The position numbers and the translations under genes are program-made. Source: Candidatus Adamsella avium (GTDB taxonomy: Bacteria > Cyanobacteriota > Vampirovibrionia > Gastranaerophilales > CAJFVJ01). From it: a stretch of DNA of 64,000 nt. Positions 21,144-42,265 of the stretch are shown piece after piece. A model generated the notes under the pieces. That model was not told where the DNA came from and searched no databases. It saw nothing but the letters and a program-made list of their open reading frames with translations. The stretch's first letter is position 1; each line of letters begins with the position of its first letter. The stretch is taken from positions 352,744 through 416,743 of the forward strand of contig CAJFVJ010000001.1 of assembly GCA_904420445.1 (NCBI GenBank), written 5' to 3'.

Positions 21144-21172
21144 TTGAATAAATCAAACGTTTGTTTTATAAT
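21144..21172 (+). promoter_or_regulatory. Sigma70 promoter with a TetR operator-like palindrome in the spacer
   Basis: TTGAAT-17 bp-TATAAT; spacer contains CAAACGTTTG; ATG 7 nt downstream. Confidence 0.7.
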
Positions 21173-21178
21173 AAAAGT

Positions 21179-27656: not shown

Positions 27657-27944
27657 AATCGGATTTAATTTACTTAAAATATCCAGTTTTATCCGTGTAA
27701 GTTATATCATAAGGGCAAAATAGGCAATAATATAAATTCATTGACAGTAATTGGACAAGAATGATTAATAAAAAAAATTATTTCAGACACTCAATATTCA
27801 AATATAAAACCACAAATAACTAATAATTTTTGTACGTTTAGATATAATATTTTCTTAAAGTTCAGCTAAATTACTGTTAATTAACATGAAAAAACACTGT
27901 GGTTAAAGAAATTTATCCAAAAATTAAAAAACTATATCCACACA
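27657..27944. repeat. Degenerate direct copy of the element right end (41805-42126)
   Basis: Co-linear blocks: TTTACTTAAAAT, GTTTTATCCGT, AGGGC..AATAGGC.ATAA, GACAGTAAT..GACAA; ends ATATCCACACA versus ATATCCGTACA. Confidence 0.7.
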
Positions 27945-28025: not shown

Positions 28026-30170
28026 ATGAGTTTTTTATTGTTTATTATTTTAATAATTGTCATTGTTACAGTTTCAAATAATAATAAAAATACTCAAAAT
28101 AACAATGCTAAATATCAAACGCCTACGTATTCTAATCCAACATATAATCAACATTATTTTAGCACGAGCTCTATCCCAAAACTTAAATTTTATTCAAAAA
28201 AAGATACTCTTGAGTTATTTGGCTATACAATTACAAATTCTTTATTTTATACCAGTACTTCTAAATCAGATATGCCATTTGCTATATATACAAAATCAAC
28301 TCCAAATTTTGGAGAGACTCCTTCAGAAGGACTAAATTACTGGCCAAATTATAATCAGATAAGTAAAACTCAACAAGGTTATTTTATAAAGTGGTTAGCT
28401 AACGGAAAGCCTTATATTGAAGAATTAGGCTATGCTTACATTTACTATTATGGTTTAGAATATAGAGCTCTTGTAGAAAAACAGGATCAAAAGGAAGTTT
28501 TATTTGAAATTATAGATTTAGTTAATAAGTTTAAAAGATTAAGATATGGATACGACTTAATAGTTTACTTGGCATTATCAATTAAGAATTTTTCACAAGA
28601 TGAAATAGATAAAATATTAGTGTTTTTAAAAAATAACGAACTAGAATATATGTACAATCCTGCATATAATTCAATAATTAAAAATTTAACACCAAGCGAA
28701 GATTATCATGTAAAATTCTCACCTTATCAATTCTTAAATAATGATGAATACAATAATTTAAGTGATAGAAAAAATGAGTTACTATCTTATTATTTTGAGA
28801 AGATAACAGAAAACCTTGAGGAATCAGAACTTTATAGTGTAAAAACACAAACATATAATTATTATATGGCTATGGCGTACTATCATACTAGTAACCTTGT
28901 CACTTATAACGCAATTGTTCCATCAACAAAGGTAAAACGTCTTTGGAATCAGGCTCGTAAAATAATAAAAGATGAAATTAAGCAAACTGTTAAAAAATTT
29001 GACAGTTCTAGTAATCCTTTGACAGAAATTGAAAAACTTGCATACTTGCCTTCTAAATTAAGAAACAATATAAATTATTCATCTAATCATTTTGATTTTG
29101 GAGAAAAAACAATTTCTGACATAGGTACAATTGCAGAAAAATTAGGATTTAAAATGCAAGATAAAACAACGTTAAGACAATCTTCTTTAATTATAGATGC
29201 TTGTGAAGCATTTGGATATGAAATTGAACCAAATGTTAATGTTGACCAAAAGCCATATAAAAAGAATTCGAAAGTTATGATATATAAAAGCCAATTTCCT
29301 ATAAAACTTTCGCCTATTGATTATCATATGGCTGCATTATTTACAGATATTGGTTTAAAAATAGCATTAGAAGATAATGAACTTCTTCCAATAGAAATGT
29401 CATATATTGAAAACTATATAAAAAAGGAATTTACATTATCTCCTTCTGAAAGACTGCGTTTGCAAATGAGAACAGAATTAATTGTTCATACAAAAGAAAT
29501 AAACACAAATGATACAATCAAAAAGCTAATTAAAATGTTAAATGATAGTAGTAAAGAAACTGTTTCTAAATTTATAATCTCTGTAGCCAAAGTAGATGGC
29601 ATTATCAAGGATAGTGAATTAAAAATTTTACAAAAAATATTTAAACAGCTTGGTCTTTCTGAAGATTATTTGAATTCGTCTCTTTCTGAACTTATTAATA
29701 ATACAGAAGAAGTTGTTATAGTTGAAAAAGGGACCGGGACAAAGAGAAAAGGGTCGAAAATACCTACAAACATTGAATTAAATGAAAAAGTAGAGTTAAA
29801 ATTAAATGCTGAAAAATTAGAAAAAATAAAAATTAATACTTCTGAAATTCATAGTGTATTACAAGAAATTTTTGCCGAAGAACAAGCCGAAATATTAAAA
29901 GCTGAGCCAATAGAAACTACTAACTCAGAAGATATGGATAAAACTGAAATAGAAAATGGTTTACAAAACATCGTAAACATCATTATTGAAAAAGAAAACT
30001 GGACTCGTAATGAACTCCTAAATGTTATTCAAAATAAAGGAACGATGTTAAGTAGCACAATAGATGAAATTAATGAGTGGAGCAACGAAGAATTTGGTGA
30101 TTTTCTTGTTGAAGAAGATGATGATGTATATCTTGTAAATAAAGACGTTGTTAATTTAATTAAAAAATAA
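28026..30170 (+). CDS. sngA: TerB-N/TerB/TerB-C protein, Shango SngA-like
   Basis: N-terminal TM; YWPNY..IS..Q..YFIKWLANG, GYAYIYYYGLEYR, AKVDGII..SE, IDEINE. Confidence 0.8.
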   Translation: MSFLLFIILIIVIVTVSNNNKNTQNNNAKYQTPTYSNPTYNQHYFSTSSIPKLKFYSKKDTLELFGYTITNSLFYTSTSKSDMPFAIYTKSTPNFGETPSEGLNYWPNYNQISKTQQGYFIKWLANGKPYIEELGYAYIYYYGLEYRALVEKQDQKEVLFEIIDLVNKFKRLRYGYDLIVYLALSIKNFSQDEIDKILVFLKNNELEYMYNPAYNSIIKNLTPSEDYHVKFSPYQFLNNDEYNNLSDRKNELLSYYFEKITENLEESELYSVKTQTYNYYMAMAYYHTSNLVTYNAIVPSTKVKRLWNQARKIIKDEIKQTVKKFDSSSNPLTEIEKLAYLPSKLRNNINYSSNHFDFGEKTISDIGTIAEKLGFKMQDKTTLRQSSLIIDACEAFGYEIEPNVNVDQKPYKKNSKVMIYKSQFPIKLSPIDYHMAALFTDIGLKIALEDNELLPIEMSYIENYIKKEFTLSPSERLRLQMRTELIVHTKEINTNDTIKKLIKMLNDSSKETVSKFIISVAKVDGIIKDSELKILQKIFKQLGLSEDYLNSSLSELINNTEEVVIVEKGTGTKRKGSKIPTNIELNEKVELKLNAEKLEKIKINTSEIHSVLQEIFAEEQAEILKAEPIETTNSEDMDKTEIENGLQNIVNIIIEKENWTRNELLNVIQNKGTMLSSTIDEINEWSNEEFGDFLVEEDDDVYLVNKDVVNLIKK

Positions 30171-30182
30171 GGGATAATTATT

Positions 30183-31457
30183 ATGGAAAAAATAAAAATC
30201 AAATCAAAAGAAAAGAATGCAATTATAGAATCTCTAAAAGCAGGTATTGTTCCACGAATTGGATTACAACATATTCAAGTAGGTAGGGCTGATGAAATTA
30301 AAGAAATGATAAAAGATTATGAATTAATTTCTGATGGCGGAGCAAAAACAAGATTTATAATTGGGGAATATGGCTCAGGCAAAACTTTTTTCCTAACATT
30401 ATCCAAATTAATTGCTCATGAAAAGAATTTAGTGGTAGTTTCTACAGATATTACAACAGAAAAGGTATTATGCTCGTCAGATGGGAAATCACAAAAATTA
30501 TTTTCTGAGCTAATATCAAATATGTCTACCAAAACTAAACCTGATGGTGGTGCATTAAGATCTATTATTGAGAGATGGGCATCAAAAATATTAAAAAGTA
30601 ATGAAAATATTACGGAAGAAAATATTTATAAAGAATTGAAGCCATTAGAAAAATATGTCGCATGTTATGATTTTTCAAAAGTTTTAACAACCTATATTAA
30701 TGCATACCAAAATGGTGATGATATAAAAATGTCACAAGTCTTAAGATGGCTAAGAGCAGAATATACAACAAAAACTGATGCTCGTAACGATTTAGGCGTA
30801 AGAACAATAATCGATGATAATAATTTCTATGAATATTTAAAATTGTTTGCAGGTTTTGTAAGATTAGCAGGATATTCTGGTTTAATAGTTAATATTGATG
30901 AATTGGCAATTTTAGCAAGGCTGAAATCAAACATTAGAAATAAAAATTTTGAAAGAATTTTAAATATAATTAATGATTCGTTACAAGGGACAACAGAATA
31001 TCTAGGGTTTATATTTAGTGGAACACCAGAATTTTTGGAAGATAAATACAAGGGTATGTATAGTTATGGTGCTTTAGAAACTCGACTTGCCGATAATCCT
31101 TTTGCAAAAGGAGGTATGAAAGATTTAACTGGACCCGTGATAAGATTAGACAACTTATCACAAGAAGAATTGTATATGTTATTTTTAAATATAAGAAATG
31201 TTTTTGCAGAATATGATGAAACTAAGTATTTGGTTTCTGAAAACGATATTAAAACATTTATGCAATGGCTTATGAACAGGTTGGGTGCTAAATCTTTTCT
31301 TTCACCGAGAGAATCTATTAAAGCATTTATAGGTTTACTAAGCCAATTACAGAATTATCCTGATACAAATATCTCAAATTACTTATCAGGAGTAAAAATT
31401 CAGGAGTATAAAGAACCAATTGATGAAGAATTGGTATCACTAAAATTAGGAGATTAA
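30183..31457 (+). CDS. sngB: DUF2791 P-loop ATPase, Shango SngB-like
   Basis: SLKAGIVPRIGL.HIQVGR, GEYGSGKT, AGYSGLIVNIDE, YGALETRL. Confidence 0.85.
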   Translation: MEKIKIKSKEKNAIIESLKAGIVPRIGLQHIQVGRADEIKEMIKDYELISDGGAKTRFIIGEYGSGKTFFLTLSKLIAHEKNLVVVSTDITTEKVLCSSDGKSQKLFSELISNMSTKTKPDGGALRSIIERWASKILKSNENITEENIYKELKPLEKYVACYDFSKVLTTYINAYQNGDDIKMSQVLRWLRAEYTTKTDARNDLGVRTIIDDNNFYEYLKLFAGFVRLAGYSGLIVNIDELAILARLKSNIRNKNFERILNIINDSLQGTTEYLGFIFSGTPEFLEDKYKGMYSYGALETRLADNPFAKGGMKDLTGPVIRLDNLSQEELYMLFLNIRNVFAEYDETKYLVSENDIKTFMQWLMNRLGAKSFLSPRESIKAFIGLLSQLQNYPDTNISNYLSGVKIQEYKEPIDEELVSLKLGD

Positions 31458-33592
31458 TGGAACCTTTTTATTTATTAAATAAAAAAATACAAAAAGTTAT
31501 TCATGAAATGAAATGGGAAAATTTTAGACCAATTCAAGATGAAGCTATTTTACATATGGTTAATAATCCTAGCGATATGATAATATCTGCTCATACTGCA
31601 AGCGGGAAAACAGAAGCTGCATTTCTCCCAATTATTTCACAAATAGCAGATAAAGGAAAGGATTCTGTAAAAATATTATATATATCACCATTAAAAGCAC
31701 TTATAAATGACCAGTTTTCAAGAATAGAAGCTCTTTGTAAACATATAGACTTCCCAATTACTAAATGGCATGGGGATGCAAACCAATCAAAAAAAGTCTC
31801 ACTGATTAAAAATCCTGCAGGTATATTACTCATAACACCAGAATCAATTGAATCTTTATTTATAAATAAGACAGAATTTTTAGGATCATTGTTTAATAGT
31901 TTAGAATATATTGTAATTGACGAAATACATAGCTTTATTGGTAATGAAAGAGGATCGCAATTAAAGAGTTTAATTAACCGTTTAGAACACACTGTAGAAA
32001 TACAACCTTATAAAATTGCATTATCTGCAACAATAAGTAACCTTTCTGATATCGCAGAATGGTTAAATCCCAGTAACCCTAGCACTGTAAAAATAATTGA
32101 AGATAACGATAAATCTAAAGATATTGTTGGTTTAATAAAATGTTATAAAAACATTCCTCCTATTGTAGGCGTTGATAAAGATGAATTTTCCGAATTAAAA
32201 CAGGATCTATTTAATGTCATAAAACAAGGTAAAAATCTAATTTTTGCAAATGCAAAAATGACATTGGAAGAATATTGTGATTCCATGCAAAATATTGCTT
32301 ATGAAAACAGTTACCCTAATAATTTTTATATCCATCACGGCTCTTTGGCTAAAAATATCAGAGAGCAATGCGAAAACTTACTAAAAAAAGAATCAAATAT
32401 TTCAGTATTTTGTACTAATACATTGGAATTGGGTATTGATATTGGAAATATAGATAGAGTGATATTTTTAGCTCCGCCATTTTCTGTTGCTTCTATGGTG
32501 CAACGACTTGGTCGTTGTGGTAGAAAAGAAAATGCAAGAAAAGAGTTTAGATTTTATATTGAAGAAAATGATATCGATGATAATGCTACTTGGCAAGATA
32601 TGTTCAGGGTTCAATTGGTTCAAAGTATTGCTATTGTTGAATTAATGTTAAAAGAAAGCATTGAACCCCTTGAAACTAATACCTTTGACTATTCAACTTT
32701 TATTCACCAAATTTTATCATATTTGGGACAAACTGGCGGTGCCGATGCTTCTAAAATATATTATAACATCGCAGATATCTCTTTTAATAATTATTTTTCT
32801 AAAGAGGATTTTATAGCTATATTGCAAAAGCTTAATTCAGATGAAATTATTTATCAAATGCCTAATGGAATAATTACATTAAGCAAACTGGGAGAGAAAA
32901 TTGTTGAGAATTATGAATTCTATGCCGCGTTTATAACTCCAAAAGATTGGAAAGTTGTTTGTAATGGTAAGGAAATAGGTCAAATATCTGGAGGAAATTT
33001 ATTATTCTTAAAAGAGGGAAGTCATTTTCTTTTAGCTGGTAAGCGATGGGAAATAGTTGAGTTCAAAAATAAAATTCAAACGATAATTGTAAAAAAAGCA
33101 TATGGGAAAAAACCTATTAAATTCCAAGGGGGATCTCAAAATATACACAGGACAATTCATCAAAAAATGTTAGAAATTTATGAAAATTGTTATATCCCGA
33201 AGTATTTATCTCAAGCATCAATTCCAATCTTAGAAGAAGGATTTGAAAATTATAAAACATATGTAAAAACTAATGATAGTAATATCCTTACAGTTTTGGA
33301 AGGGACTCGAATCCAAAATACAATAGGTTTGCTTTTTAAATATTGTGGTATAGATATTGAAGATGGAGGAATTGGTTATTATTCAACCTGTAGAAAGCAA
33401 GAACTAATTAAAATTTTAAAATCAATTAATTTTTCAAATCTTGATAAAAATTCCATAATTGATTTAGTTGATAAATCTTTAAAATATAAAAAGAAATTTG
33501 ATTATTTGCTACCAGATAATATTCTGAATAAAGCATATGAAAAACAATGCCTAGATTTTAATGGAGCTAAGGAATTTATAAATAAATTGTAG
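31457..33592 (+). CDS. sngC: Lhr-like DEAD/H helicase, Shango SngC-like
   Basis: TASGKTEAAFLP, DEIH, LSAT, HHGSL, TLELGIDIG, QRLGRCGR; TAATG coupling to the ATPase gene. Confidence 0.85.
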   Translation: MEPFYLLNKKIQKVIHEMKWENFRPIQDEAILHMVNNPSDMIISAHTASGKTEAAFLPIISQIADKGKDSVKILYISPLKALINDQFSRIEALCKHIDFPITKWHGDANQSKKVSLIKNPAGILLITPESIESLFINKTEFLGSLFNSLEYIVIDEIHSFIGNERGSQLKSLINRLEHTVEIQPYKIALSATISNLSDIAEWLNPSNPSTVKIIEDNDKSKDIVGLIKCYKNIPPIVGVDKDEFSELKQDLFNVIKQGKNLIFANAKMTLEEYCDSMQNIAYENSYPNNFYIHHGSLAKNIREQCENLLKKESNISVFCTNTLELGIDIGNIDRVIFLAPPFSVASMVQRLGRCGRKENARKEFRFYIEENDIDDNATWQDMFRVQLVQSIAIVELMLKESIEPLETNTFDYSTFIHQILSYLGQTGGADASKIYYNIADISFNNYFSKEDFIAILQKLNSDEIIYQMPNGIITLSKLGEKIVENYEFYAAFITPKDWKVVCNGKEIGQISGGNLLFLKEGSHFLLAGKRWEIVEFKNKIQTIIVKKAYGKKPIKFQGGSQNIHRTIHQKMLEIYENCYIPKYLSQASIPILEEGFENYKTYVKTNDSNILTVLEGTRIQNTIGLLFKYCGIDIEDGGIGYYSTCRKQELIKILKSINFSNLDKNSIIDLVDKSLKYKKKFDYLLPDNILNKAYEKQCLDFNGAKEFINKL

Positions 33593-33602
33593 GAATGTAA
33601 AT

Positions 33603-34292
33603 ATGAAAAAACAAATTGATAATTTTTTAAACAATAAAATTTGTGAAATGTTTTTAGTAATAATCATTATTATTAATATTATATGTCTTGGTTTTGAAAC
33701 TGATAAAACAATATATTTACATTACAAAACTTTATTTAATCAAATAGAATTAATTTCTGTAATTATATTTACTATTGAATATATTCTACGTTTAATATCT
33801 ATGGAAAAATTAAAAGATGCCCTAAAACCTTTGATGATAATAGATTTATTTGCGATTTTACCATTTTATTTACCTTTGAAGGGGTTAGATTTAAGAATAT
33901 TAAGAACTTTTAGATTGCTGAGAATTTTTAGAATGTTCAAATTAGCTCGTTATTTTGATGCTCTACAAATGATAGGTAAAGTCATTTATAGAAAAAGATA
34001 TGAATTAATAAGTATATTTGGAGTATTGCTTTTGCTAATGTTTATAAGCTCATTTTTTATGTTTTATGCGGAGGCAGATGCCCAGCCTAATGCTTTTCAC
34101 AATATTCTAGATACTTTTTGGTGGTCATTGGTTACTTTTACAACGGTAGGATATGGCGATGTTTACCCAATAACAGCTATAGGAAAAGTTTTATCAGGTA
34201 TTGTGGTACTAATAGGAATTATGCTTTTTGCACTTCCTACAAGTATTTTAACAGCTGAATTTATGAATGAATTTAATAAAGATAAGAAATAA
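33603..34292 (+). CDS. Six-TM voltage-gated potassium channel
   Basis: S4 RILRTFRLLRIFRMFKLAR, filter TTVGYGD; no cytoplasmic regulatory domain. Confidence 0.92.
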   Translation: MKKQIDNFLNNKICEMFLVIIIIINIICLGFETDKTIYLHYKTLFNQIELISVIIFTIEYILRLISMEKLKDALKPLMIIDLFAILPFYLPLKGLDLRILRTFRLLRIFRMFKLARYFDALQMIGKVIYRKRYELISIFGVLLLLMFISSFFMFYAEADAQPNAFHNILDTFWWSLVTFTTVGYGDVYPITAIGKVLSGIVVLIGIMLFALPTSILTAEFMNEFNKDKK

Positions 34293-34434: not shown

Positions 34435-34668
34435 ATGAGTAAAAATAAGAAATATAGGATTAAACAAAAAGATTTTAGAGAGTTAGAAAAACTAGCTGAG
34501 CGAATTTATAACACAGCCACTGTAATCGATTATTTTTGCAGGACTCAACAAGATATAGAAGAGCTGTATAATCTTACTCCAATCGTCGAAAATTTAAGGC
34601 AAGATAGTGATACTGTAAACGCTTATTTTATAAATTACCCGAAAGGTAATATTCAAATAAGATTTTAA
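34435..34668 (+). CDS. Small hypothetical protein
   Basis: AAGGAGG RBS, 77 aa ORF. Confidence 0.65.
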   Translation: MSKNKKYRIKQKDFRELEKLAERIYNTATVIDYFCRTQQDIEELYNLTPIVENLRQDSDTVNAYFINYPKGNIQIRF

Positions 34669-34893
34669 TACCGTTCAAAAAGTGTTCAAAAAGCTCTGTA
34701 TTGAATTTTATACTAATAAGATATAGGAAATTATACTTTACTTAAAAACTTTGCTTAAAAAGCCTGTTATCCGTTTTTATATAATTGCTCATTACAAAAA
34801 TACTTTTTATGTCTAAATGATACGTTTTGAGTGTCTTTGCTTGATATTTAACTTATTGAGAGTGATATATGTTATTGCTGATAAGAGGTAGCA

Positions 34894-35109
34894 ATGATTG
34901 AATTAGGCAAAAAATACAAACTTAAAAAGATTAGAGGTTTTGAGAACTCTGATAATGAGTATTACAAAGTAATTGGATTCTATAATTTCGATACTGTCAT
35001 TTGCGAAAACGCTTGCGGAGAAAGATTTATATTTATGAAAGAGTTTTTAATAGACCCACAAAAGCCCGAGGATATCTATTCAAATTTAATACTTGAAAGG
35101 AAAGAATGA
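34894..35109 (+). CDS. Small hypothetical protein
   Basis: GAGGT RBS; ATGA overlap with the next ORF. Confidence 0.65.
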   Translation: MIELGKKYKLKKIRGFENSDNEYYKVIGFYNFDTVICENACGERFIFMKEFLIDPQKPEDIYSNLILERKE

Positions 35110-35309
35110 TGACAGAAAAAGACTATGCACTTTATGGAACAAAGGTTTTGAATTTAAAAACACAAGAAATCGGATTACTAATTTGTATATGGAAAAACAA
35201 GTTTGCCGATGGTGAAGTTGATTTTGCAACTTGTGTTGATAAACAAGGCAAAAGATACAATATAGAACTTGATAACATACGAGGGTTTGAAGATGATTTT
35301 GAAAAATAA
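35106..35309 (+). CDS. Small hypothetical protein
   Basis: Translationally coupled 67 aa ORF. Confidence 0.6.
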   Translation: MMTEKDYALYGTKVLNLKTQEIGLLICIWKNKFADGEVDFATCVDKQGKRYNIELDNIRGFEDDFEK

Positions 35310-35526
35310 GCTGACAAGAGAAACATTAGAGATAACTTATCCTGAATTTAGAAAAAAGTTTGCAAAAGAAATTAGGACTGCTTTTGAAAGTTATCGCAGA
35401 ACACAATTAAATAGGTATTCTTACAATTTTAAAGATGATAACTCAATGGAATATAATTTTTATTTCCAATTACAATGGAATTTCAATCACTTTGGAAATT
35501 CTAATTGGTATATTGAAAAGTTATAG
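35293..35526 (+). CDS. Small hypothetical protein
   Basis: Overlaps the previous stop region; GAGG upstream of ATG 35293. Confidence 0.55.
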   Translation: MILKNKLTRETLEITYPEFRKKFAKEIRTAFESYRRTQLNRYSYNFKDDNSMEYNFYFQLQWNFNHFGNSNWYIEKL

Positions 35527-35530
35527 ATAA

Positions 35531-35944
35531 TTAATCACTATCCGTCAAATTATCCACAATTTTATCAATAATGTCTTTATCTATATTTGTCCTTTTTTCT
35601 ATTGTTCGAATAAAACTTTCAATATTCATCGGTTCTTTTTCTTTTCTTACAACACTTTCAAGTAAGTTTGTAAATTTATATATTCTTGAAGGCTCTATGT
35701 TGTGATTATTCTGTAGATCAACATTAAAACTTTGAAGCATATATTTGGCTTGTATAAATGTATCCTCTTTGGAAAGACTAAAATGTTCAATAAATTCTTT
35801 TCTTTTACCAGACCAATCTCCGTCTTTTTTCCAACGTTTTATAGTTCTTTCGTGTACACCTATTCTTCTTGCAATTTCAGCAACTGTAATAAATTTTTCA
35901 ACATACATATTTTCTGCAATTGCATAATACTTATCTTTTTTCAC
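35531..35944 (-). CDS. HTH protein resembling Mu gp27/DUF1804 small-terminase-like proteins
   Basis: AENMYV...TVAEIARRIGVHERTIKRWKKDGDWSGKR; GAGGA RBS, GTG start. Confidence 0.6.
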   Translation of the reverse strand: MKKDKYYAIAENMYVEKFITVAEIARRIGVHERTIKRWKKDGDWSGKRKEFIEHFSLSKEDTFIQAKYMLQSFNVDLQNNHNIEPSRIYKFTNLLESVVRKEKEPMNIESFIRTIEKRTNIDKDIIDKIVDNLTDSD

Positions 35945-35953
35945 TTTTTCCTC

Positions 35954-37903
35954 TTAGTTAATATACTTTTTATTTCGTTCTGCTAATATTTTATCGGTTT
36001 CATAAAGGTATAAGGTTTCTTTTGGTTTAGGTTCTTCTTGCAAAAATATTGATAAATCAAATTTTCCAAAATCATCTTGCTCTTTCTTTTTCCTAACTGC
36101 TTTATCCATATTTGTATTTGCAATCTTTGAAACTTTAACATCTGTATCGAACTCTTTTTTTGCACTGTTATAAGCAGCTTTGTAATTTTCATATTGTTCT
36201 TCAGGAGATATTGTAAGAGTTTGTTTAATATAAGCCTTGGCAACTTTGCTATTGCGTTTTTTAATAGACATAGCCTCTTTAAATTCTTCTTTAGATACTT
36301 TATCTGCATGTAATGCAGCAACAGCTTTTACAGCATTCACTGTTCCTATAAATTCATCATTATCGCATCTGAATGCCCAAGCTTCTTTGTAATCTTCTAT
36401 ATCTCTGCGTAAATATACTCTCAAGCCCATTTTTGAAATCATCCAATCAGCCCAATAAGTTATCCCAAGAGTTGTATCTTTTATTCCGTTTCTTCTGATT
36501 GTAAAATCTTTTGAAGTTCTCATACAAAATAGTTTTAGAGCATCTTTTGTAGTTGTAATTTTTTCTTTAAATTCAGAATAGAAAAGTTCATCAGGACATA
36601 ACCCGTTTAAAGTTTTCCCTTGAGATGGTCTTTTATTTAAAATATCTAAAATATATTTATCAAAAAGAAGTTTGAAATCTTCAAATTTCATAATTTCCCC
36701 GGATTTAATTTCTTTTGCGAGCTTTTGAGGTCTTTCGACAACATTACCACCTCTATAACCTATAAAATGTTTTGAAAGGATTTCCTTTATCTTCAAAAAA
36801 TCCCTTTCAACAGGTTTAGTCTGAGCATTATAAGGCAGAGCAAAATGAACTTCTATATTCAACTCTGCCAACATAGACTGAGTTTTTGTTTTATTGGTTG
36901 AAATTTTTATACTTCTACGACCACCTGCAAAATCCTTTGAACGGTAATCTTTACCATTATCAATGATAACATCTTTAGGCAGTCCATACTTTTCAGCAGC
37001 ATAGTAAAAAGATTGGAAAATATAGTCAGAATTTGGATTTCCTGTTTGTAAAATCCAACCAAGCCATTTACCTGATTTATAATCACGCCACACTGTAACC
37101 CAAGGAAAAACAACTTTATTATCTGAATCAAAACAGGCAACATCAATTTGAGCGTGATCTGATACCCAGACCTCATTACATAAAATATTTGAATAATCTC
37201 TTTCTATATACCCGCCATATTTTCTATTCCAAGCAGTTTCTCCCATTCGTGCAAGATAAATACTTTGTTTTGGAATTTCTTTATCTAATCGGCGTTTGAA
37301 AGTCATATAACTTGGAAATGTTTCTCTTTTAGCATCAAACATTCTGATGGCATAACCAAGAGTTAAATCCCAACAAGTTCTTATAGATGGTGCTCCTTCA
37401 ACTAAATACAAATTTTTAAAGTACTCAAAGAAATTATCAGGAACAGTGGAGCCTGATAAATGTTTGCCGTGTTGCGATAACAAACCGCTCAATCCATACC
37501 GAAAGAATCTTCTTCGCATTTTTATAACAGACGAATAAGATGTGTTTAACCACTTTTCATGTTCAAAATTCCATTTATCTATAAAATCTTTTAAAGCCTC
37601 TCCCCTTAATCCTTTTGATGCATTTATTATTGGTAAATATTTTTCAGCCTGGGCTTTTGCCCAATCGGGAGCTTCTGAATATTTAGTATTTATAACATCT
37701 TCTTTAAGATACTTATCTTGTGCAAAATCAGGCAAAGATTTTAAAAGAAGAAAGTAATGAGTTCTTTTTCCCCGTCTGATAATTTTAAAAGTATAGTAAC
37801 CTCTCCTACATTGCTTTTTAAGAGTTTGGATGCTAAGTCCTAAAATTTCAGCAGATTTTTCTATATCTAACCATATATTTGTTTTGTCTTTATTTTCTTT
37901 CAT
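35954..37903 (-). CDS. MuA-like DDE transposase (copy 2)
   Basis: N-terminus resembles the MuA I-alpha domain (WLDIEKSAEILGL...SLPDFAQ); WVSDH / IIDNGKDY / TKPVERDF triad. Confidence 0.9.
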   Translation of the reverse strand: MKENKDKTNIWLDIEKSAEILGLSIQTLKKQCRRGYYTFKIIRRGKRTHYFLLLKSLPDFAQDKYLKEDVINTKYSEAPDWAKAQAEKYLPIINASKGLRGEALKDFIDKWNFEHEKWLNTSYSSVIKMRRRFFRYGLSGLLSQHGKHLSGSTVPDNFFEYFKNLYLVEGAPSIRTCWDLTLGYAIRMFDAKRETFPSYMTFKRRLDKEIPKQSIYLARMGETAWNRKYGGYIERDYSNILCNEVWVSDHAQIDVACFDSDNKVVFPWVTVWRDYKSGKWLGWILQTGNPNSDYIFQSFYYAAEKYGLPKDVIIDNGKDYRSKDFAGGRRSIKISTNKTKTQSMLAELNIEVHFALPYNAQTKPVERDFLKIKEILSKHFIGYRGGNVVERPQKLAKEIKSGEIMKFEDFKLLFDKYILDILNKRPSQGKTLNGLCPDELFYSEFKEKITTTKDALKLFCMRTSKDFTIRRNGIKDTTLGITYWADWMISKMGLRVYLRRDIEDYKEAWAFRCDNDEFIGTVNAVKAVAALHADKVSKEEFKEAMSIKKRNSKVAKAYIKQTLTISPEEQYENYKAAYNSAKKEFDTDVKVSKIANTNMDKAVRKKKEQDDFGKFDLSIFLQEEPKPKETLYLYETDKILAERNKKYIN

Positions 37904-38204
37904 AAATATCCTTATTTTAGCGTTATTAAAATCTCTTTTAAAGCCCACTTAACATTCCGACATAAAATTTGTGACAATTTTAAAAGCTAAAATGCAGTAA
38001 TAATAAGATTTCTTAAAAATGCTATTTTTATAAAATTTCCCTCAAATACTTTATCTATCTGCTTTATAAAAAAGACAAATATTTGTCCTGTTTTTTACGA
38101 AGAAATATGAAGTGGTCTTGACGAAATTTGTATTTGTATATAATAGCTACCAAATTTTATTATATTTACTTCTACAGAATAATAAATAGGTAACATTTTG
38201 TGGT

Positions 38205-38220
38205 CGGGGAAATTTCCCCG
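38205..38220. promoter_or_regulatory. Perfect 16-bp palindrome between the transposase units
   Basis: CGGGGAAATTTCCCCG; half-site TCGGGGAAA repeated at about 38327. Confidence 0.5.
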
Positions 38221-38354
38221 CAAGTAAACTTCAAAATCCGCTCTATACTTAAAAAAATATTTTCAAGAAATAAGTATAAACACTCCAAAATACACGTTGC
38301 CAAAGGAATACAACCCAAAAATAAAATCGGGGAAAAGTTTATGAAGTTCTATTA

Positions 38355-39020
38355 CTAAAATCCAGCTAATAGTTTTAAATCATAATACAAATCCTTAAAC
38401 TCTCTTTTTCTTCGCCATAAGGTTTCTGCTATTTTACAGTTCAAATTAGTAGCCATTTTATTATGTGTTAAATTCCTTGAAAGATAGCAATAAATAGTTG
38501 TAAACTCTGCTTTTTGGTCTGTAGAAAAGGTTTTATCCTCAGATGATTTTAAAAGATTTTCAGATACAAAAATTTGATTGCAGTATAGGTATAAATATAC
38601 TTCTTGATTAAAAAACTTTCTATAACGTGCTTTTTGTGGAGATTTTAGATAGTAAAAATCTAATTTTTGTTTTTGCCTTTGGTAAATCAAAGTTCTGAAT
38701 ATTGTATAAAAGCTTTGAATTTGGTTTTCACCAATATTTGCAATATTAGATGCTTTTATCGAATTTATATTTTCACAAAAACACCTTAATACAATATCAT
38801 TTATTATTGCAGGGTATGTTTTAAATATAGAATATTTTTGAACTGAAACTTTGCTTTTTTGAAACAAATATTCATTTTCTTGCTTTATTAATTTATTTTC
38901 ATCAACAAATTTTGACAATATCGGTAAAAGTTCTGCTTTAGGGATTTCAGATAAAATTTCTAAATTTTCAAGCGTAAATTTGTTGAGCCTTTTGCAAAGT
39001 TTCAATATTTGATCTTCCAT
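38355..39020 (-). CDS. Winged-helix protein with an IS1595-transposase-like C-terminal part (no evident DDE)
   Basis: Overlaps the ATPase 3' end; KRLNKFTLENL wHTH-like; VLRCFC...KASNIA...QIQSFYTIFRTLI; AETLWRR tail. Confidence 0.55.
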   Translation of the reverse strand: MEDQILKLCKRLNKFTLENLEILSEIPKAELLPILSKFVDENKLIKQENEYLFQKSKVSVQKYSIFKTYPAIINDIVLRCFCENINSIKASNIANIGENQIQSFYTIFRTLIYQRQKQKLDFYYLKSPQKARYRKFFNQEVYLYLYCNQIFVSENLLKSSEDKTFSTDQKAEFTTIYCYLSRNLTHNKMATNLNCKIAETLWRRKREFKDLYYDLKLLAGF

Positions 39021-39696
39021 ATAATAATTTCCTTAAAATATTTTCATCAATCTGTTTTAATTGATTTGTAATCGCAAGTTTTTCTATTTTATTTATCAAT
39101 TTAACAATTTGTCTAAATTGGTTAACTCTTGTTGCAAGATATTCTACACCATCAGGTGTAAAAGGGATTTGCGTTAATTCATTCAAGATCTGTTTCACAT
39201 CTTCAAAATCATATCGTTCAAACTTAAATGACTTATAAATCCTGTCTATAATATGAGGATATCTTGAAAGTTTTTTATCAATGTTGCCCATTCCAACAAG
39301 CACTAAAGGACAAGAAGTTGTATCATACAAATCTCTCAGTGTTTCTATTGTATTTCTTTCAAGCAAGTAATCTACTTCGTCAATTATTATAGGTTTTGGA
39401 TTTTCTTGAAGTTTCTTCTCTATTAAATTAAAAGTTTCCTGAATATGCCAAAACGGTTCTTCTTCTAATTCTTCTGCAATTTCAGATAACAGCCACCGAC
39501 TTGTCATACCTTGGTTTGCTCTTACATATATGCAATCATTTTTAAAAGTCCACCACTTTATAGTTTCTGATTTTCCGAGTCCATATTCTCCATAAACAAG
39601 AATAATTTTAGGTATATTATTAGGTAGTTGTTTTACCTCCTCCATTAATGATACAAAGTTTTTGACATTCTTTGTTTTTACAAATACTTTATTCAT
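38968..39696 (-). CDS. MuB/TnsC-like AAA+ ATPase
   Basis: FVKTKNV, Walker A GEYGLGKS, Walker B IIIDEVD, LRDLYD...LVLVGM. Confidence 0.9.
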   Translation of the reverse strand: MNKVFVKTKNVKNFVSLMEEVKQLPNNIPKIILVYGEYGLGKSETIKWWTFKNDCIYVRANQGMTSRWLLSEIAEELEEEPFWHIQETFNLIEKKLQENPKPIIIDEVDYLLERNTIETLRDLYDTTSCPLVLVGMGNIDKKLSRYPHIIDRIYKSFKFERYDFEDVKQILNELTQIPFTPDGVEYLATRVNQFRQIVKLINKIEKLAITNQLKQIDENILRKLLYGRSNIETLQKAQQIYA

Positions 39697-39698
39697 CT

Positions 39699-41720
39699 TT
39701 ATACTCCTTCTTGGGCAAATACATTTTTCTCATTATGTTCACAATCTGCGTATAAATTGGCATATTCATTACTATTTAAATACTCCTCAAGCCATTTTCT
39801 TTGTTCAGGATTGGTACAACCGTATTTCATTAACCATTCATATTTTTCATAATCAGCGTTAAATACTGGAATATTCATTTGCTGTTCCCGAAAGTTTAAT
39901 TTGCGTTTTAGTGGTGTTTTAGTCTGTTCAAATTTTTCAATTTCAATAACTTCTTCCTGTTCAATCTCTATAGCTTCTGCTTTTTCTTTAGGGAAATACT
40001 TTAAGAACTCTTTTTTCACTCTCTTAAATCTGCGTTGCTGTTTTTGTATTTGTTGCTTAAATTGTTCCATATCTTTTACTGTTCCTAAATGATTTGCCAT
40101 TGGATGAACTTTTTCAACTTGTCTTGCGATACATAAAAATTCACCTTTTATTGAATATACAAGGACTTTTGAAAGGTCAAACAAACTGTATTTTATAAAT
40201 ACTTTTTCTCTTAAATCCAATAAATAATCACTCCTATAATGCATTCCAAGAAATGTTATTCCATGCTTATTTATCGTTCTTGCCTCAGTTTTCATCATTA
40301 AATCATTTAAAATATTTTTATCGATTTGATGGCGTTGAACACTGTTTAAACATTGTTTAATTGATATTTGAGGAGCGTTCGGACAAGGTTTTGAATTGTG
40401 AAAATCTAACCAACAATCAATGTATTTTATTAATTCTTGTATAGTTGGAATGTAATTATTGGAGAGTTTTTTATGCATATCTCTATGGAGTTTTTCTCCT
40501 CGTTTCATCCAAGCCGGTTTATTTTCAATACTTGTTCCTATATAACTTGTCATCATTTTTTCAAACTCTTCTTGAAATTCAAGGAAGAATCTTTCAATAA
40601 CTTTTGCTCTAGCATTGTAGGGTTTTGCAAAAACTGATTTTATTCCAAGTTTTGCATAAATTCCATTAAATCCTGCTTCATCAAAATCTATATTTTGGAA
40701 ATATTTTGCTTTAAATGCTTTTCCGTTATCTTGATAAACTACTTTAGGAACCACGCCGAGATTTAAAATAGAATTTCTTAATGCACTTGCTATGCATTGA
40801 GTATTTTCACTCATCATAATTTCATATCCGACTAATGCTGTTGATTTCCAATCTAAAAAGCCGACCAAAGTTGCTCTGGTCGGCTTTCCTGTAAATGGAT
40901 TAATTATTTGAAAATTAAGAACATGTCCATCAGCTATCAAAACATCTCCTACTTCAATTTTAGAAATATCTCGTTCTATATACGGTTCAATTTTATCGTG
41001 ATATGCTTTTTCACCTTCTCTAAATAAAATCCACTTTGAATAATTGTTTTTCTTAAAATTCTCCACAAATCTTCTGAATGTTAGATTACATGGAATATTT
41101 TCATATCCTCGCTTTTCTAGAATATGTTTTGTTAAATTTATAGCTTTTCCGATACTAAATTTATTCGGGTGTAACAAATATTTCAAAAATATCTGTTTCA
41201 TTTCATCATTCAAAATCGTATTATATTCACCTTGTTTATTAGTTTTGCGTTTTTGTAGAAGTCCGTCCGTTCCATAATTTTCAAATGTCTTTACCCAACG
41301 ATGAAGTGTACCTATAGAAATTGAACCTACAAACTTATATATTTGTGGTAAATACATTCCGCTATTGTATAAATCTAAAAATACTGAATCAGCCTCTTTT
41401 TTAGTCGAATATTTTTTACGGAGATTATATAAGGCAGTTACTATATCCACTCTTGCAAGTGCTGTTAATCTTGCATTTTCTGATACAAAATTCACCTTGT
41501 TTTCAAACGGAACAATTGCTGTTGTTTTTAATTCTTCTTCATCTAATCTATCTTGTATCTCAGGTTCTAATGAAGAATAAAGAATTTCATACGATTTCCC
41601 GCCTCTTACTTCAACTTCTCTTGCAATATACTTACCTTGGTTAATTGCAAGTCTTATCGAACGGGTACTTTTTAAGCCTTTTAATTCTGCGATTTTATTA
41701 ATACTTATATAATCGTCCAT
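39699..41720 (-). CDS. MuA-like DDE transposase (copy 1)
   Basis: I-alpha-like N-terminus (ISINKIAELKGL..RSIR...RGGKSYEI..SSL); IADGH / YQDNGKAF / AKVIERFF triad. Confidence 0.92.
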   Translation of the reverse strand: MDDYISINKIAELKGLKSTRSIRLAINQGKYIAREVEVRGGKSYEILYSSLEPEIQDRLDEEELKTTAIVPFENKVNFVSENARLTALARVDIVTALYNLRKKYSTKKEADSVFLDLYNSGMYLPQIYKFVGSISIGTLHRWVKTFENYGTDGLLQKRKTNKQGEYNTILNDEMKQIFLKYLLHPNKFSIGKAINLTKHILEKRGYENIPCNLTFRRFVENFKKNNYSKWILFREGEKAYHDKIEPYIERDISKIEVGDVLIADGHVLNFQIINPFTGKPTRATLVGFLDWKSTALVGYEIMMSENTQCIASALRNSILNLGVVPKVVYQDNGKAFKAKYFQNIDFDEAGFNGIYAKLGIKSVFAKPYNARAKVIERFFLEFQEEFEKMMTSYIGTSIENKPAWMKRGEKLHRDMHKKLSNNYIPTIQELIKYIDCWLDFHNSKPCPNAPQISIKQCLNSVQRHQIDKNILNDLMMKTEARTINKHGITFLGMHYRSDYLLDLREKVFIKYSLFDLSKVLVYSIKGEFLCIARQVEKVHPMANHLGTVKDMEQFKQQIQKQQRRFKRVKKEFLKYFPKEKAEAIEIEQEEVIEIEKFEQTKTPLKRKLNFREQQMNIPVFNADYEKYEWLMKYGCTNPEQRKWLEEYLNSNEYANLYADCEHNEKNVFAQEGV

Positions 41721-41832
41721 ACATACAGATTAACTCTGAAGTCGGAAAGGTGTTCCTTTTTTCCTTCTTTTGTATCATTAGGACATAATTTTATTCTATA
41801 TACGAACCGGACTTTATTTACTTAAAATGTCA

Positions 41833-42126
41833 AATAATCGTTTTATCCGTACAAATTAGATTATGAGGGCGGAATAGGCTATAACATTGGTTTTAAAATA
41901 GAAAAATTAAGACAATTCTTGGACAGTAATCAGACAATCAAGACCAGTAAAAGACCATTTTGTAACATATAAAACGATTACTTCCGACCGCTAAAGGTCA
42001 AACACAAAGCCAACTTTGCCGAATAATCTTTTTATGCGTGCAGATAAAATGTCCCGTTAAATTACACTGTTTTTTCAAGCTGGTCGAAATACACAGACTT
42101 TTTTTAAATAATCAAATATCCGTACA
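41833..42126. repeat. Putative transposase-binding sites at the element right end
   Basis: TGTACGGATAAAACGATTATT-like motif on the minus strand at 41833-41853, 42022-42042 and 42107-42126, and inverted at 41961-41982. Confidence 0.7.
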
Positions 42127-42137
42127 AGCCGAAAATC

Positions 42138-42222
42138 CGGAGAGGGAGGGATTCGAACCCTCGGTGGGTTACCCCACACAGACTTTCGAGATCCGCACCT
42201 TAAACCACTCGGACACCTCTCC
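42138..42222 (-). tRNA. tRNA-Ser(CGA)
   Basis: GGAGAGG/CCTCTCC acceptor stem, loop CT-CGA-AA, long variable arm, GGTTCGAATCC. Confidence 0.95.
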
Positions 42223-42265
42223 AGCAAACAAAAATATTTTAGCACAATCAAAATTGAAATATAAT

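What the first reader, a model, noticed from the sequence alone, without database searches (positions are those of the whole stretch)
35531..42126. Mobility module with two MuA-type transposases, a MuB-like ATPase and no phage structural genes, beside a tRNA
Seen: co-oriented minus-strand genes in the order transposase 1, ATPase, wHTH protein, ~400-bp spacer, transposase 2, terminase-like HTH. Both transposases are full length, clearly diverged from each other, and keep a DDE triad (DGH/DNG/IER and SDH/DNG/VER). Both have an N-terminus like the MuA I-alpha domain. The element ends in ...ACA 11 bp from tRNA-Ser(CGA). Known: Mu uses one MuA plus MuB with little target specificity, and tRNA-targeting Tn7-like elements use TniQ/TnsD, which I cannot recognise here. 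Inference: this may be an undescribed phage-derived, possibly site-specific cargo transposon using two transposases (a heteromer, or one per end).
Basis: partly seen in the sequence, partly recalled or inferred. Interest (0 to 1): 0.85.

Follow-up and report, generated by a model that had tools for sequence, protein, structure and literature searches.

The report
tRNA-homing phage-derived transposon, two transposases
This is the gene end of a 21-kb mobile island, descended from Mu-like "jumping" phages of gut Melainabacteria, that lands just downstream of tRNA genes, carries a phage-defence system and an efflux pump, and unusually keeps two different Mu-type transposases.

Summary
The gene order is real: Tnp1 (39699-41720), AAA+ ATPase (38968-39696), winged-helix protein (38355-39020), 406-bp spacer, Tnp2 (35954-37948) and an HTH protein (35531-35944), all on the minus strand. 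Both DDE triads are invariant.

The element is larger than reported. It spans 21043-42066 (21,024 bp), with TGTAA...TTACA tips and a 5-bp duplication (CTGTT). It ends 70 bp, not 11 bp, from tRNA-Ser(CGA). Cargo is a complete Shango defence system, an ion channel and a TetR/ABC efflux operon.

The same genome holds a 53-kb relative beside tRNA-Phe, also with a 5-bp duplication. That copy is a complete myovirus prophage with Tnp1-ATPase1-selector followed by ner-Tnp2-MuB-GemA-Mor.

In 80 related loci, 39 of 43 assessable have Tnp1 upstream of Tnp2. Of 30 with enough flank, 25 follow a tRNA gene, all in one orientation, covering 14 anticodons. Tnp1 and Tnp2 co-diverge (r=0.90), and Tnp2 is under purifying selection (dN/dS 0.06-0.11).

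Best reading: a phage-less cargo derivative of tRNA-homing transposable phages. Tnp1-ATPase-selector does the homing, and Tnp2 is the retained phage MuA. An obligate heteromer is not shown. I found no published description.

The parts
21038..21042 (.). Left copy of the 5-bp target-site duplication, CTGTT
   Evidence: Read. The same 5 bp stand at 42067-42071. Homology with the same-genus genome G001 ends at 21043.
21043..21080 (+). Left (L) end. The tip is TGTAAAGAAACAC, followed by a GATTATTT repeat core.
   Evidence: The same tip, TGTAAAGA(A/G), is found in locus 2 of the same genome (C1:721111), in L039 and in L026.
21161..27648 (+). Cargo 1: TetR regulator, outer-membrane efflux protein, HlyD-type adaptor, double ABC ATPase and two ABC-2 permeases
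   Evidence: Pfam. A 68% identical paralogous operon lies at C1:795611-802118.
27660..27880 (+). Internal relic of a second right end, in the same orientation as the true one
   Evidence: It aligns with 41805-42066 at 72% mean column identity. The tip reads AAATTAC-TGTT, which lacks 2 bases.
28026..33592 (+). Cargo 2: Shango anti-phage system sngA, sngB, sngC
   Evidence: PADLOC: SngA 5.9e-44, SngB 5.9e-153, SngC 4e-211. Pfam: TerB_N/TerB/TerB_C, BrxC_BrxD, and DEAD plus Helicase_C.
33603..34292 (+). Cargo 3: ion-channel protein (229 aa)
   Evidence: Pfam Ion_trans 8.4e-32.
34435..35526 (+). Four small ORFs (77, 71, 67 and 85 aa) conserved among related elements. Function unknown.
   Evidence: 85-88% nucleotide identity to C3:364674-365469. 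Homologs occur in L024, L025, L026, L029, L035, L039 and L040. No Pfam or PADLOC family was hit.
35531..35944 (-). 137-aa HTH protein resembling a small terminase subunit (TerS)
   Evidence: Pfam Terminase_5, 23.8 bits against a cut-off of 20.3, and a weak DUF1804 hit. Its distant homolog in the sister prophage (tblastn E 2e-8, 20% identity) lies directly before the large terminase.
35954..37948 (-). Tnp2, a MuA-type DDE transposase. It is the ortholog of the A gene of Mu-like early regions.
   Evidence: Pfam DDE_2, I-gamma and Mu-transpos_C. PDB: ShCAST TnsB 3.4e-9 and MuA 8e-8. The triad is invariant in 12 of 12. dN/dS is 0.11 and 0.06.
37949..38354 (-). Spacer. A hairpin lies after the selector gene, and there is no credible ORF. 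In relatives this position holds a ner-like HTH gene or a CI/LexA-type repressor.
38355..39020 (-). Candidate target selector: a 221-aa protein with a winged helix, a second three-helix HTH and an unmatched C-terminal domain
   Evidence: AF2 pLDDT 89.6. Residues 1-57 match a winged helix at Z 9.6. Residues 62-221 folded alone (pLDDT 93.2) match only a 45-residue HTH at Z 5.7. 168 homologs were found, none with a Pfam domain.
38968..39696 (-). ATPase1, a MuB/TnsC-type AAA+ ATPase
   Evidence: Pfam AAA_22 7.4e-17 and TniB 8.1e-8. Profile against PDB: MuB 8xvb 3.3e-11, VchTnsC 4.1e-10, ShTnsC 3.6e-8. Walker A GxxGxGK and Walker B DE are invariant.
39699..41720 (-). Tnp1, a MuA/TnsB-type DDE transposase
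   Evidence: Pfam. Profile against PDB: MuA 4fcy 4.1e-6, ShCAST TnsB 3.8e-4. The triad is invariant in 16 of 16.
41721..42066 (-). Right (R) end. The tip on the minus strand is TGTAATTTAACGGGACA. Three copies of ATAAAAnGATTAyT lie at 42022-42035 (-), 41969-41982 (+) and 41833-41846 (-).
   Evidence: The homology boundary with L025, L038 and L035 falls at 42066. The repeat occurs 5 times against 1.32 expected, and 0 of 100 shuffles reach 5.
42067..42071 (.). Right copy of the 5-bp target-site duplication, CTGTT
42137..42223 (-). Target landmark: tRNA-Ser(CGA). Its T-arm GGGTTCGAATCCCTCC lies at 42145-42160.
   Evidence: ARAGORN. T-arm comparison.

Best explanation
The finding is the transposition-gene end of a 21,024-bp transposon (window 21043-42066). 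The transposon is a phage-less, cargo-carrying descendant of a lineage of Mu-like transposable phages of Gastranaerophilales (Melainabacteria). It carries two separable MuA/MuB-type modules.

Module 1 is Tnp1 + ATPase1 + the 221-aa double-HTH protein. It works like TnsB-TnsC-TniQ/TnsD. The DNA-binding protein reads a feature of tRNA genes, most likely the T-arm sequence. The AAA+ ATPase couples it to Tnp1. The element is then inserted, right end first, about 40-95 bp downstream of the tRNA 3' end, with a 5-bp duplication.

Module 2 is Tnp2, the ortholog of the phage's own MuA. In full phages it stands in a repressor/ner - A - B - gemA - mor early region. There it presumably drives replicative transposition during lytic growth.

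The window's lineage has lost the MuB-like partner and all structural genes, but keeps Tnp2 and a TerS-like gene under selection.

Shown: anatomy, tips, duplications, tRNA association, conservation and co-divergence of the pair, and selection on Tnp2.
Inferred: which protein does what, T-arm recognition, and division of labour.
For: Boundaries:
- TGTAA...TTACA tips with a CTGTT duplication.
- The right boundary is shared with three relatives.
- Same-genus genome G001 lacks 21044-42131.
- A second element in the same genome, C1:721111-774218, has the same left tip, a CTCAA duplication and 3+1 end repeats. Its right tip lies 72 bp from tRNA-Phe.

Phage origin:
- That second element encodes portal, major head protein, protease, large terminase, sheath, tape measure, baseplate and fibre.
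- Relatives have ATPase2 (HTH_3+AAA_22), GemA, Mor and an S24 repressor beside Tnp2.
- Tnp2 relatives at 40-50% identity on viral contigs are ordinary one-transposase Mu-like early regions.

The pair is a unit:
- 39 of 43 assessable loci have Tnp1 upstream of Tnp2.
- Identity matrices of Tnp1 and Tnp2 correlate at r=0.90, and 0 of 5000 Mantel permutations reach that value (12 loci).

Homing belongs to module 1:
- 25 of 30 paired loci follow a tRNA gene, all 25 on the same strand, with 14 anticodons.
- 4 of 5 Tnp1-only loci also follow a tRNA gene.
- Elements with 92-98% identical selectors sit at Ser(CGA), Ser(GCT), Met and Arg(ACG). All 7 target tRNAs share GGGTTCGAATCCC, which 8 of 43 tRNA genes of this genome have.

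Tnp2 is still functional:
- The triad is invariant.
- dN/dS is 0.11 (against L024) and 0.06 (against L039).
- 29 of 80 loci are of the window's type.
- 97-98% identical copies sit at four different tRNA genes in different species-level genomes.
Against: - No experiment or model shows which transposase binds the ends. Only one family of end repeats is evident, so two enzymes 25% identical would have to share it, or one may not act on these ends.
- Tnp2 is dispensable for persistence. L025 has an internal 1871-bp deletion of it, and L035 has it frameshifted.
- The nearest genome has no clean empty site. About 800 bp of an unrelated gene stand there.
- T-arm recognition is loose. Of the 7 target tRNAs, 5 have the exact 16-mer and 2 have one mismatch.
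- The tRNA-to-tip distance varies from 38 to 70 bp for the same selector type. A Tn7-type ruler would not give such variation.
- The selector shows no likeness to TniQ/TnsD.
- One Tnp2-only viral contig (L171) also lies 0.7 kb from a tRNA.
- The internal right-end relic shows the island is a composite whose history I could not fully resolve.
Confidence: 0.6

Rival explanations
1. Obligate two-transposase machine. Tnp1 and Tnp2 form one heteromeric transpososome or each serve one end, so both are needed for every move.
For: - The pair is conserved and co-diverges.
- The two tips differ beyond TGTAA: the left is TGTAAAGAAACAC and the right is TGTAATTTAACGG. No inverted copy of the right tip exists in the window.
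- In three loci (L076, L078, L082) Tnp2 lies at the left end, with cargo between it and the Tnp1 module.
- Tnp2 is kept under selection after loss of its own ATPase.
Against: - Tnp1-ATPase1-selector elements without Tnp2 are common and also sit at tRNA genes.
- Distant Tnp2 relatives work in ordinary one-transposase Mu-like phages.
- 46 of 80 loci give Tnp2 its own MuB-like ATPase.
- A Tnp2-deleted copy persists at a tRNA.
- Mu itself has unlike left and right ends with a single MuA (textbook knowledge, recalled).
Confidence: 0.15
2. Transposable satellite. The window's type is a parasite of the full phages. It homes with module 1 and keeps Tnp2 and the TerS-like gene. When a helper phage is induced, the helper supplies MuB-like ATPase2, capsids and lysis, and the element replicates and is packaged.
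For: - The same genome holds a complete helper-type prophage whose left tip and repeat core resemble those of the window's element.
- The TerS-like gene is retained without a large terminase.
- The Tnp2 C-terminal tail motif is invariant in elements with and without ATPase2.
- Near-identical copies occur in several species-level genomes, although the element has no transfer genes of its own.
Against: - There is no evidence of packaging or induction.
- The helper's TerS-like protein is only 20% identical.
- Helper and satellite Tnp2 are 64% identical, and their right tips differ.
- A 21-kb element in a headful of about 40 kb is possible but untested.
Confidence: 0.15
3. Decayed prophage remnant. 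The island is an immobile leftover, and Tnp2 and the HTH gene are relics on their way to loss.
For: - Structural genes and MuB-like, GemA and Mor genes are missing.
- Tnp2 is deleted in L025 and frameshifted in L035.
- There is an internal end relic.
Against: - Both tips are intact with a perfect 5-bp duplication.
- dN/dS of Tnp2 is 0.06-0.11.
- 29 of 80 loci share this architecture, with Tnp2 identity down to 67%.
- 97-98% identical copies sit at different tRNA genes.
Confidence: 0.07
4. Chance neighbours. Two independent elements, one Tn7-like and one Mu-like, merely share an integration hot spot.
For: Tandem arrays at tRNA sites do occur (L039, L026 and the window's internal relic).
Against: - The same order and strand occur in 39 of 43 loci.
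- The two transposases co-diverge.
- No second set of ends lies between the selector gene and Tnp2.
- In two elements the duplications flank the outermost tips.
Confidence: 0.03

Closest known systems
Bacteriophage Mu and Mu-like transposable phages (MuA, MuB, c, ner, gemA, mor)
   Same: - DDE transposase with Mu I-gamma, DDE_2 and Mu-transpos_C domains.
- MuB-type AAA+ ATPase.
- TG...CA tips and a 5-bp duplication.
- In relatives, the repressor/ner - A - B - gemA - mor order and a myovirus late region.
   Different: - Mu and every hit among 50,697 phage records carry one transposase per record. Here there are two pairs.
- Mu inserts almost anywhere (textbook, recalled). These elements sit downstream of tRNA genes.
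- The window's copy has no structural genes and carries cargo.
Tn7-like transposons without TnsA (Tn5053 type, type V-K CAST): TnsB-TnsC-TniQ
   Same: - Gene order transposase - AAA+ ATPase - DNA-binding selector at the right end.
- One fixed orientation downstream of a conserved gene, including tRNA genes.
- A 5-bp duplication and repeated transposase sites in the ends.
- Defence systems as cargo (passages of PMC8649781 and PMC10293859).
   Different: - The selector has no TniQ/TnsD domain and no guide RNA.
- Insertion distance is variable (38-70 bp for one selector type).
- One selector type serves several tRNA species.
- A second transposase is present.
- By profile, the proteins are at least as close to MuA/MuB as to TnsB/TnsC.
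TnsF of Tn6022 and Tsy elements (selectors derived from tyrosine recombinases; PMC10293859, passages read)
   Same: In some relatives (L043, L033, L036) the gene after ATPase1 is the same N-terminal winged helix fused to Phage_int_SAM_3 and Phage_integrase domains. This is a recombinase-derived candidate selector beside a TnsC-like ATPase.
   Different: - The window's 221-aa protein has no integrase domain.
- TnsF has zinc fingers, needs TniQ and targets comM.
- No TniQ is present here.
'Mu transposons' with I-A or V-F CRISPR-associated transposases (mentioned in PMC11656645, passage read)
   Same: Phage-like Mu-family transposons that have gained a dedicated targeting device.
   Different: Those are RNA-guided. 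No cas gene or array was seen here. I read one passage only, not the primary paper.

Membership tests
Mu-like transposable phage | MuA-type DDE transposase | tested here: met
   Tnp2: Pfam DDE_2 1.9e-9, and PDB MuA 8e-8. Tnp1: profile to MuA 4fcy 4.1e-6. Triads are invariant.
Mu-like transposable phage | MuB-type AAA+ target DNA activator | tested here: met
   The best PDB hit of the ATPase1 profile is MuB 8xvb at 3.3e-11. The N-terminal HTH typical of MuB is present only in ATPase2 of relatives, not in the window.
Mu-like transposable phage | 5-bp target duplication and TG...CA tips | tested here: met
   CTGTT in the window. CTCAA in the 53-kb sister element.
Mu-like transposable phage | Head, tail and lysis genes (a virus) | tested here: not met
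   0 of 35 sister-prophage proteins hit the window's element, and Pfam found none. The feature is met in the sister element.
Mu-like transposable phage | Little target specificity | tested here: not met
   25 of 30 loci lie downstream of a tRNA gene, all 25 in the same orientation.
Tn7-like transposon | TnsB-type transposase and TnsC-type ATPase | tested here: met
   Tnp2 to ShCAST TnsB 3.4e-9. Tnp1 profile 3.8e-4. ATPase1 to VchTnsC 4.1e-10, and Pfam TniB 8.1e-8.
Tn7-like transposon | TniQ/TnsD-family target selector | tested here: not met
   No Pfam family at E up to 0.1 for the 221-aa protein. 168 homologs have no Pfam domain. The fold search shows a winged helix and an HTH only. Likeness to TniQ by fold is inconclusive.
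Tn7-like transposon | TnsA endonuclease (heteromeric cut-and-paste) | tested here: not met
   None of the 19 ORFs of the element scanned with Pfam hit a TnsA family. The second ABC-2 permease was not scanned.
Tn7-like transposon | Orientation-specific insertion beside a conserved host gene | tested here: met
Tn7-like transposon | Fixed distance from the recognised sequence | tested here: not met
   The tRNA end to tip distance is 38, 50, 50, 51, 60, 61 and 70 bp for elements with 92-98% identical selectors.
Shango defence system (cargo) | SngA (TerB), SngB (ATPase) and SngC (helicase) in one operon | tested here: met
   PADLOC 5.9e-44, 5.9e-153 and 4e-211. The genes are contiguous at 28026-33592.
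Phage satellite | Packaging by a helper phage | not testable with these tools
   Only circumstantial evidence: a TerS-like gene and a helper-type prophage in the same genome.

The most novel reading that the evidence does not exclude
Gut Melainabacteria harbour transposable phages, and their phage-less offspring, that run two MuA/MuB-type machines on one pair of ends.

One machine carries a double-HTH protein that reads the tRNA T-arm. It can therefore home behind many different tRNA genes. This would be a bacterial counterpart of the tRNA-gene homing of eukaryotic Ty3/TRE elements.

The other is the classical Mu replication machine.

The window's type would be a transposable satellite. It keeps Tnp2 and a TerS-like gene to exploit a helper phage, and ferries defence systems between species.
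Probability: 0.3. Interest if true: 0.85.

Novelty: new variant of a known kind. Interest (0 to 1): 0.7.

Why it matters
- Mu is the textbook example of near-random transposition, and Tn7 of targeted transposition. This lineage joins the two in one element, so the question of how a MuA/MuB-type machine is made site-specific becomes directly testable.
- The selector is a small protein of an uncharacterised family (168 homologs, no Pfam domain). With near-identical sequence it serves at least four tRNA species. If it reads the conserved T-arm, it is a compact, protein-only, broad-host 'safe harbour' targeting device for large cargo (21-53 kb here).
- The two-transposase arrangement is conserved, co-evolving and under selection in an understudied gut phylum. 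It is a natural experiment on division of labour between paralogous transposases.
- It also shows how defence systems such as Shango travel in these genomes.

Tried and rejected
- The motif TGTACGGATA near 42105-42125 looked at first like the terminal repeat. A scan gave 9 matches against 6 expected. The same-genus genome has a similar flank, so it is host DNA. Rejected.
- blastn-short of the end regions against the window gave only AT-rich noise.
- A search for an inverted copy of the right tip in the window found none. The left tip was found instead through the G001 boundary and the duplication.
- L031 against L032: homology ends inside a tail-fibre region, not at a transposon end.
- I could not find the left end of the Tnp1-only element on C3 or of other Tnp1-only loci. 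So I could not test whether the left-tip type depends on Tnp2.
- A search for a second set of ends between the selector gene and Tnp2 in the sister prophage found only AT-rich chance words.
- The promoter/terminator scan of 35400-42200 found no more sites than shuffles give.
- phmmer of Tnp1 alone against PDB gave nothing. A profile was needed.
- Foldseek of the selector model gave no match at E up to 0.001.
- Complex prediction of ATPase1 with the Tnp2 C-terminal 80 residues gave no verdict (score 0.00). It is neither support nor evidence against.
- No phylogeny with MuA, TnsB, TniA and Tn552 references was built, because no reference sequences were at hand as ids.
- Five literature searches and passages of three papers gave no description of a tRNA-homing Mu-like phage or a two-transposase Mu/Tn7-type element. 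Supplements were closed, and subscription journals are not in the library.
- The look-up of sequencing runs and read laying were not used, because the element with both flanks exceeds the 20-kb limit.

Full report
**What is at the coordinates.**
- Tnp1, 39699-41720, 673 aa.
- An AAA+ ATPase, 38968-39696, 242 aa.
- A 221-aa protein, 38355-39020.
- A 406-bp spacer.
- Tnp2, 35954-37948, 664 aa.
- A 137-aa HTH protein, 35531-35944.

Tnp1 hits Mu-transpos_C, the Mu I-gamma domain and, weakly, rve. Tnp2 hits DDE_2 (Bacteriophage Mu transposase), I-gamma and Mu-transpos_C. The ATPase hits AAA_22 and TniB. The 137-aa protein hits Terminase_5 above its cut-off. The 221-aa protein hits nothing.

The two transposases are 25% identical. 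Their DDE triads are invariant in 16 and 12 aligned homologs. No hit supports a MuA I-alpha-like N-terminus. tRNA-Ser(CGA) lies at 42137-42223 on the minus strand.

**The element is larger than the finding, and its end was misplaced.**
- GC falls to 0.25-0.31 between about 21000 and 42000, against 0.36-0.43 outside.
- DNA homology with three related elements stops exactly at 42066, where the minus strand reads TGTAATTTAACGGGACA.
- A same-genus genome, G001, matches the window up to 21043 and again from 42132. About 800 bp of an unrelated gene lie between.
- At 21043 the plus strand reads TGTAAAGAAAC.
- The 5 bp before it (CTGTT, 21038-21042) recur right after 42066, at 42067-42071.

The element is therefore 21043-42066 (21,024 bp). 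Its right tip lies 70 bp from the tRNA 3' end. The ACA at 42126 is host flank.

The right end holds three copies of ATAAAAnGATTAyT. The window has 5 copies against 1.32 expected, and 0 of 100 shuffles reach 5.

**Cargo.**
- A TetR regulator with an OEP-HlyD-ABC-ABC2 efflux operon.
- A complete Shango system: SngA, SngB, SngC at E 6e-44, 6e-153, 4e-211.
- An ion channel.
- Four small conserved ORFs.

A 220-bp relic of a second right end lies at 27660-27880. It shows the island is a composite of two tandem elements that last moved as one unit.

**A sister element shows the origin.** The same genome has two more Tnp1 loci.

The first, C1:721111-774218, has these features:
- the same left tip (TGTAAAGAG);
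- a related right tip, 72 bp downstream of tRNA-Phe(GAA);
- a perfect 5-bp duplication (CTCAA);
- the repeat TGATTATTTnGGGCAA three times at the right end and once, inverted, at the left.

Its genes, in order, are Tnp1 (67% identical to the window's Tnp1), ATPase1, selector, a ner-like HTH gene, Tnp2 (64%), a 292-aa ATPase with an N-terminal HTH, GemA and Mor. A myovirus late region follows: portal, protease, major head protein, large terminase, sheath, tape measure, baseplate and fibre.

The window's 137-aa protein has a distant homolog directly before that large terminase. It is therefore best read as a TerS-like remnant.

The second locus, on C3 beside tRNA-Leu(GAG), has Tnp1, ATPase1, a 186-aa protein and an HTH137-like gene, but no Tnp2.

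**Distribution.**
- In 61 genomes of the order, Tnp1 relatives occur in 42 and Tnp2 relatives in 14.
- A scan of one genome per species found 176 Tnp2 relatives. The best 80 are almost all labelled Gastranaerophilales or Melainabacteria gut MAGs.
- Of these 80, Tnp2 is followed by the MuB-like ATPase2, GemA and Mor in 46. It is followed by the HTH137 gene, as in the window, in 29. Five are cut by contig ends.
- Of 43 loci with at least 4 kb upstream, 39 have Tnp1-ATPase1-selector upstream on the same strand. The exceptions are L076, L078, L082 and L090.
- Of 30 paired loci with at least 1 kb upstream of Tnp1, 25 have a tRNA gene upstream. All 25 are on the same strand, 16 lie within 700 bp, and 14 anticodons are represented.
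- Four of five Tnp1-only loci also follow a tRNA gene.
- On viral contigs, Tnp2 relatives at 40-50% identity stand in ordinary Mu-like early regions (repressor, A, B, GemA, Mor) without a Tnp1 module. Those at 58-65% have the module wherever the upstream stretch is long enough to show it (L140, L141, L143, L144, L145).
- No record among 50,697 phage genomes holds two places. The best hits are Mu-like transposases at 23-30% identity.

**Is the pair one unit?**
- Across 12 paired loci, the identity matrices of Tnp1 and Tnp2 correlate at r=0.90. None of 5000 Mantel permutations reach that value. Related loci are not independent, so this shows long common descent rather than a probability.
- No second set of ends lies between the selector gene and Tnp2.
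- In both fully delimited elements the duplications flank the outermost tips.
- Tnp2 is under purifying selection in the lineage that lost ATPase2: dN/dS is 0.11 against L024 and 0.06 against L039.
- Against an obligate role: one 95-99% identical element (L025) has an internal 1871-bp deletion of Tnp2 with 7 bp of microhomology. L035 has Tnp2 frameshifted.

**Targeting.** Tips lie after the tRNA terminator, about 40-95 bp from the tRNA 3' end. I read these distances by eye.

Elements whose selectors are 92-98% identical to the window's sit at these tRNA genes:
- Ser(CGA) (window, L062);
- Ser(GCT) (L063);
- Met (L038, L064);
- Arg(ACG) (L025, L065).

Five of these seven tRNAs carry the exact T-arm 16-mer GGGTTCGAATCCCTCC, and two carry it with one mismatch. 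The common core, GGGTTCGAATCCC, is in 8 of the 43 tRNA genes of this genome, and the 16-mer is in 2. Other selector clusters go with other T-arms. For example, one cluster of four loci has TTGGTTC(A/G)A(A/G)TCCA.

Distances for the window's selector type range from 38 to 70 bp, so there is no strict ruler.

The selector model is confident (pLDDT 89.6). Residues 1-57 form a winged helix (Z 9.6, rmsd 1.4, 56 residues aligned). The rest, folded alone (pLDDT 93.2), matches only a 45-residue three-helix HTH (Z 5.7).

In some relatives the same winged helix is fused to integrase SAM-like and catalytic domains. This recalls the recombinase-derived selector TnsF (passages of PMC10293859).

**Family placement.** By profile, Tnp1 is closest to MuA (4e-6) and then ShCAST TnsB (4e-4). 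ATPase1 is closest to MuB (3e-11), then VchTnsC (4e-10) and ShTnsC (4e-8). Tnp2 hits TnsB (3e-9) and MuA (8e-8). Both modules therefore belong to the MuA/MuB-TnsB/TnsC superfamily. Module 1 is arranged and behaves like TnsB-TnsC-selector. Module 2 is the phage's own A (and, in relatives, B).

**Verdict.**
- It is unproven, and on balance unlikely, that the two transposases form one obligate machine.
- The most likely mechanism has module 1 homing to tRNA genes. Tnp2 would be a retained, still selected Mu-type transposase, whose partner in this lineage is either ATPase1 or a helper phage's MuB-like protein.
- I found no published description in five searches.
- I rate it a new variant of known kinds (Mu-like phages, Tn7-like targeted transposons), of high interest to transposon and phage specialists.

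Noticed in passing
window 28026-33592: A complete Shango anti-phage system (SngA, SngB, SngC) rides as cargo of the transposon.
   Followed up: yes
window 27660-27880: An internal, same-orientation relic of a right end, 72% like 41805-42066. Its tip lacks 2 bases and is followed by TGTT. The island looks like two tandem elements fused. The order of events is not resolved.
   Followed up: partly
window 21178-27596 and G000:C1:795611-802118: The TetR/efflux operon of the island has a 68% identical paralogous operon elsewhere on the same contig.
   Followed up: no
window 34386-35300 and G000:C3:364674-365469: The small ORFs (77, 71 and 67 aa) are 85-88% identical in DNA between two elements whose transposases are only 48% identical. 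This points to recent module exchange. Their function is unknown.
   Followed up: partly
L090 5737-7663; L170 8997-11230: In two loci a Tnp1 N-terminal piece runs directly into a Tnp2 body just downstream of a tRNA gene. ATPase1 and the selector are missing. These may be deletion chimeras between the two paralogs.
   Followed up: no
L043 7134-8228; L033 11005-11874; L036 5157-8432: In these relatives the gene after ATPase1 is the selector's winged helix fused to integrase SAM-like and Phage_integrase domains. L036 has two such genes (543 and 544 aa) in tandem, and these also carry a transposase-like N-terminal region.
   Followed up: partly
G000:C1:771700-773950 (L011 17821-19797): A low-GC 658-aa ORF (PHROG of unknown function) is inserted inside the right-end region of the sister prophage. 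It is flanked by a duplication of about 50 bp of end sequence. L062, L063 and L065 likewise have 1.5-2.6 kb between the right tip and Tnp1.
   Followed up: partly
L039 15500-15540 (oriented); L026 about 9516 (oriented): Tandem arrays. The left tip of one element lies 15 bp from the right tip of the next. In L026 a transposase-less element with a proper left tip sits between the tRNA and the autonomous one.
   Followed up: partly
L030 5003-11544: Two Tnp1-ATPase1 modules stand head to head about 1 kb apart, with no tRNA between them.
   Followed up: no
L171 8090-11899: A Tnp2-only Mu-like viral contig has tRNA-Ala 0.7 kb upstream of its repressor gene. This may be chance, or a hint that tRNA proximity is not wholly due to module 1.
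   Followed up: no
G001:C1:209870-210670 (L044): At the site that is filled in the window, the same-genus genome carries an unrelated gene of about 800 bp with a signal-peptide-like start. A clean empty site is therefore not available.
   Followed up: partly
G000:C1:721111-734260: The left 13 kb of the 53-kb sister element, beyond the phage late genes, hold large ORFs (871, 623, 514, 288, 1046 and 433 aa) that I did not annotate. They may be more cargo, possibly defence genes.
   Followed up: no
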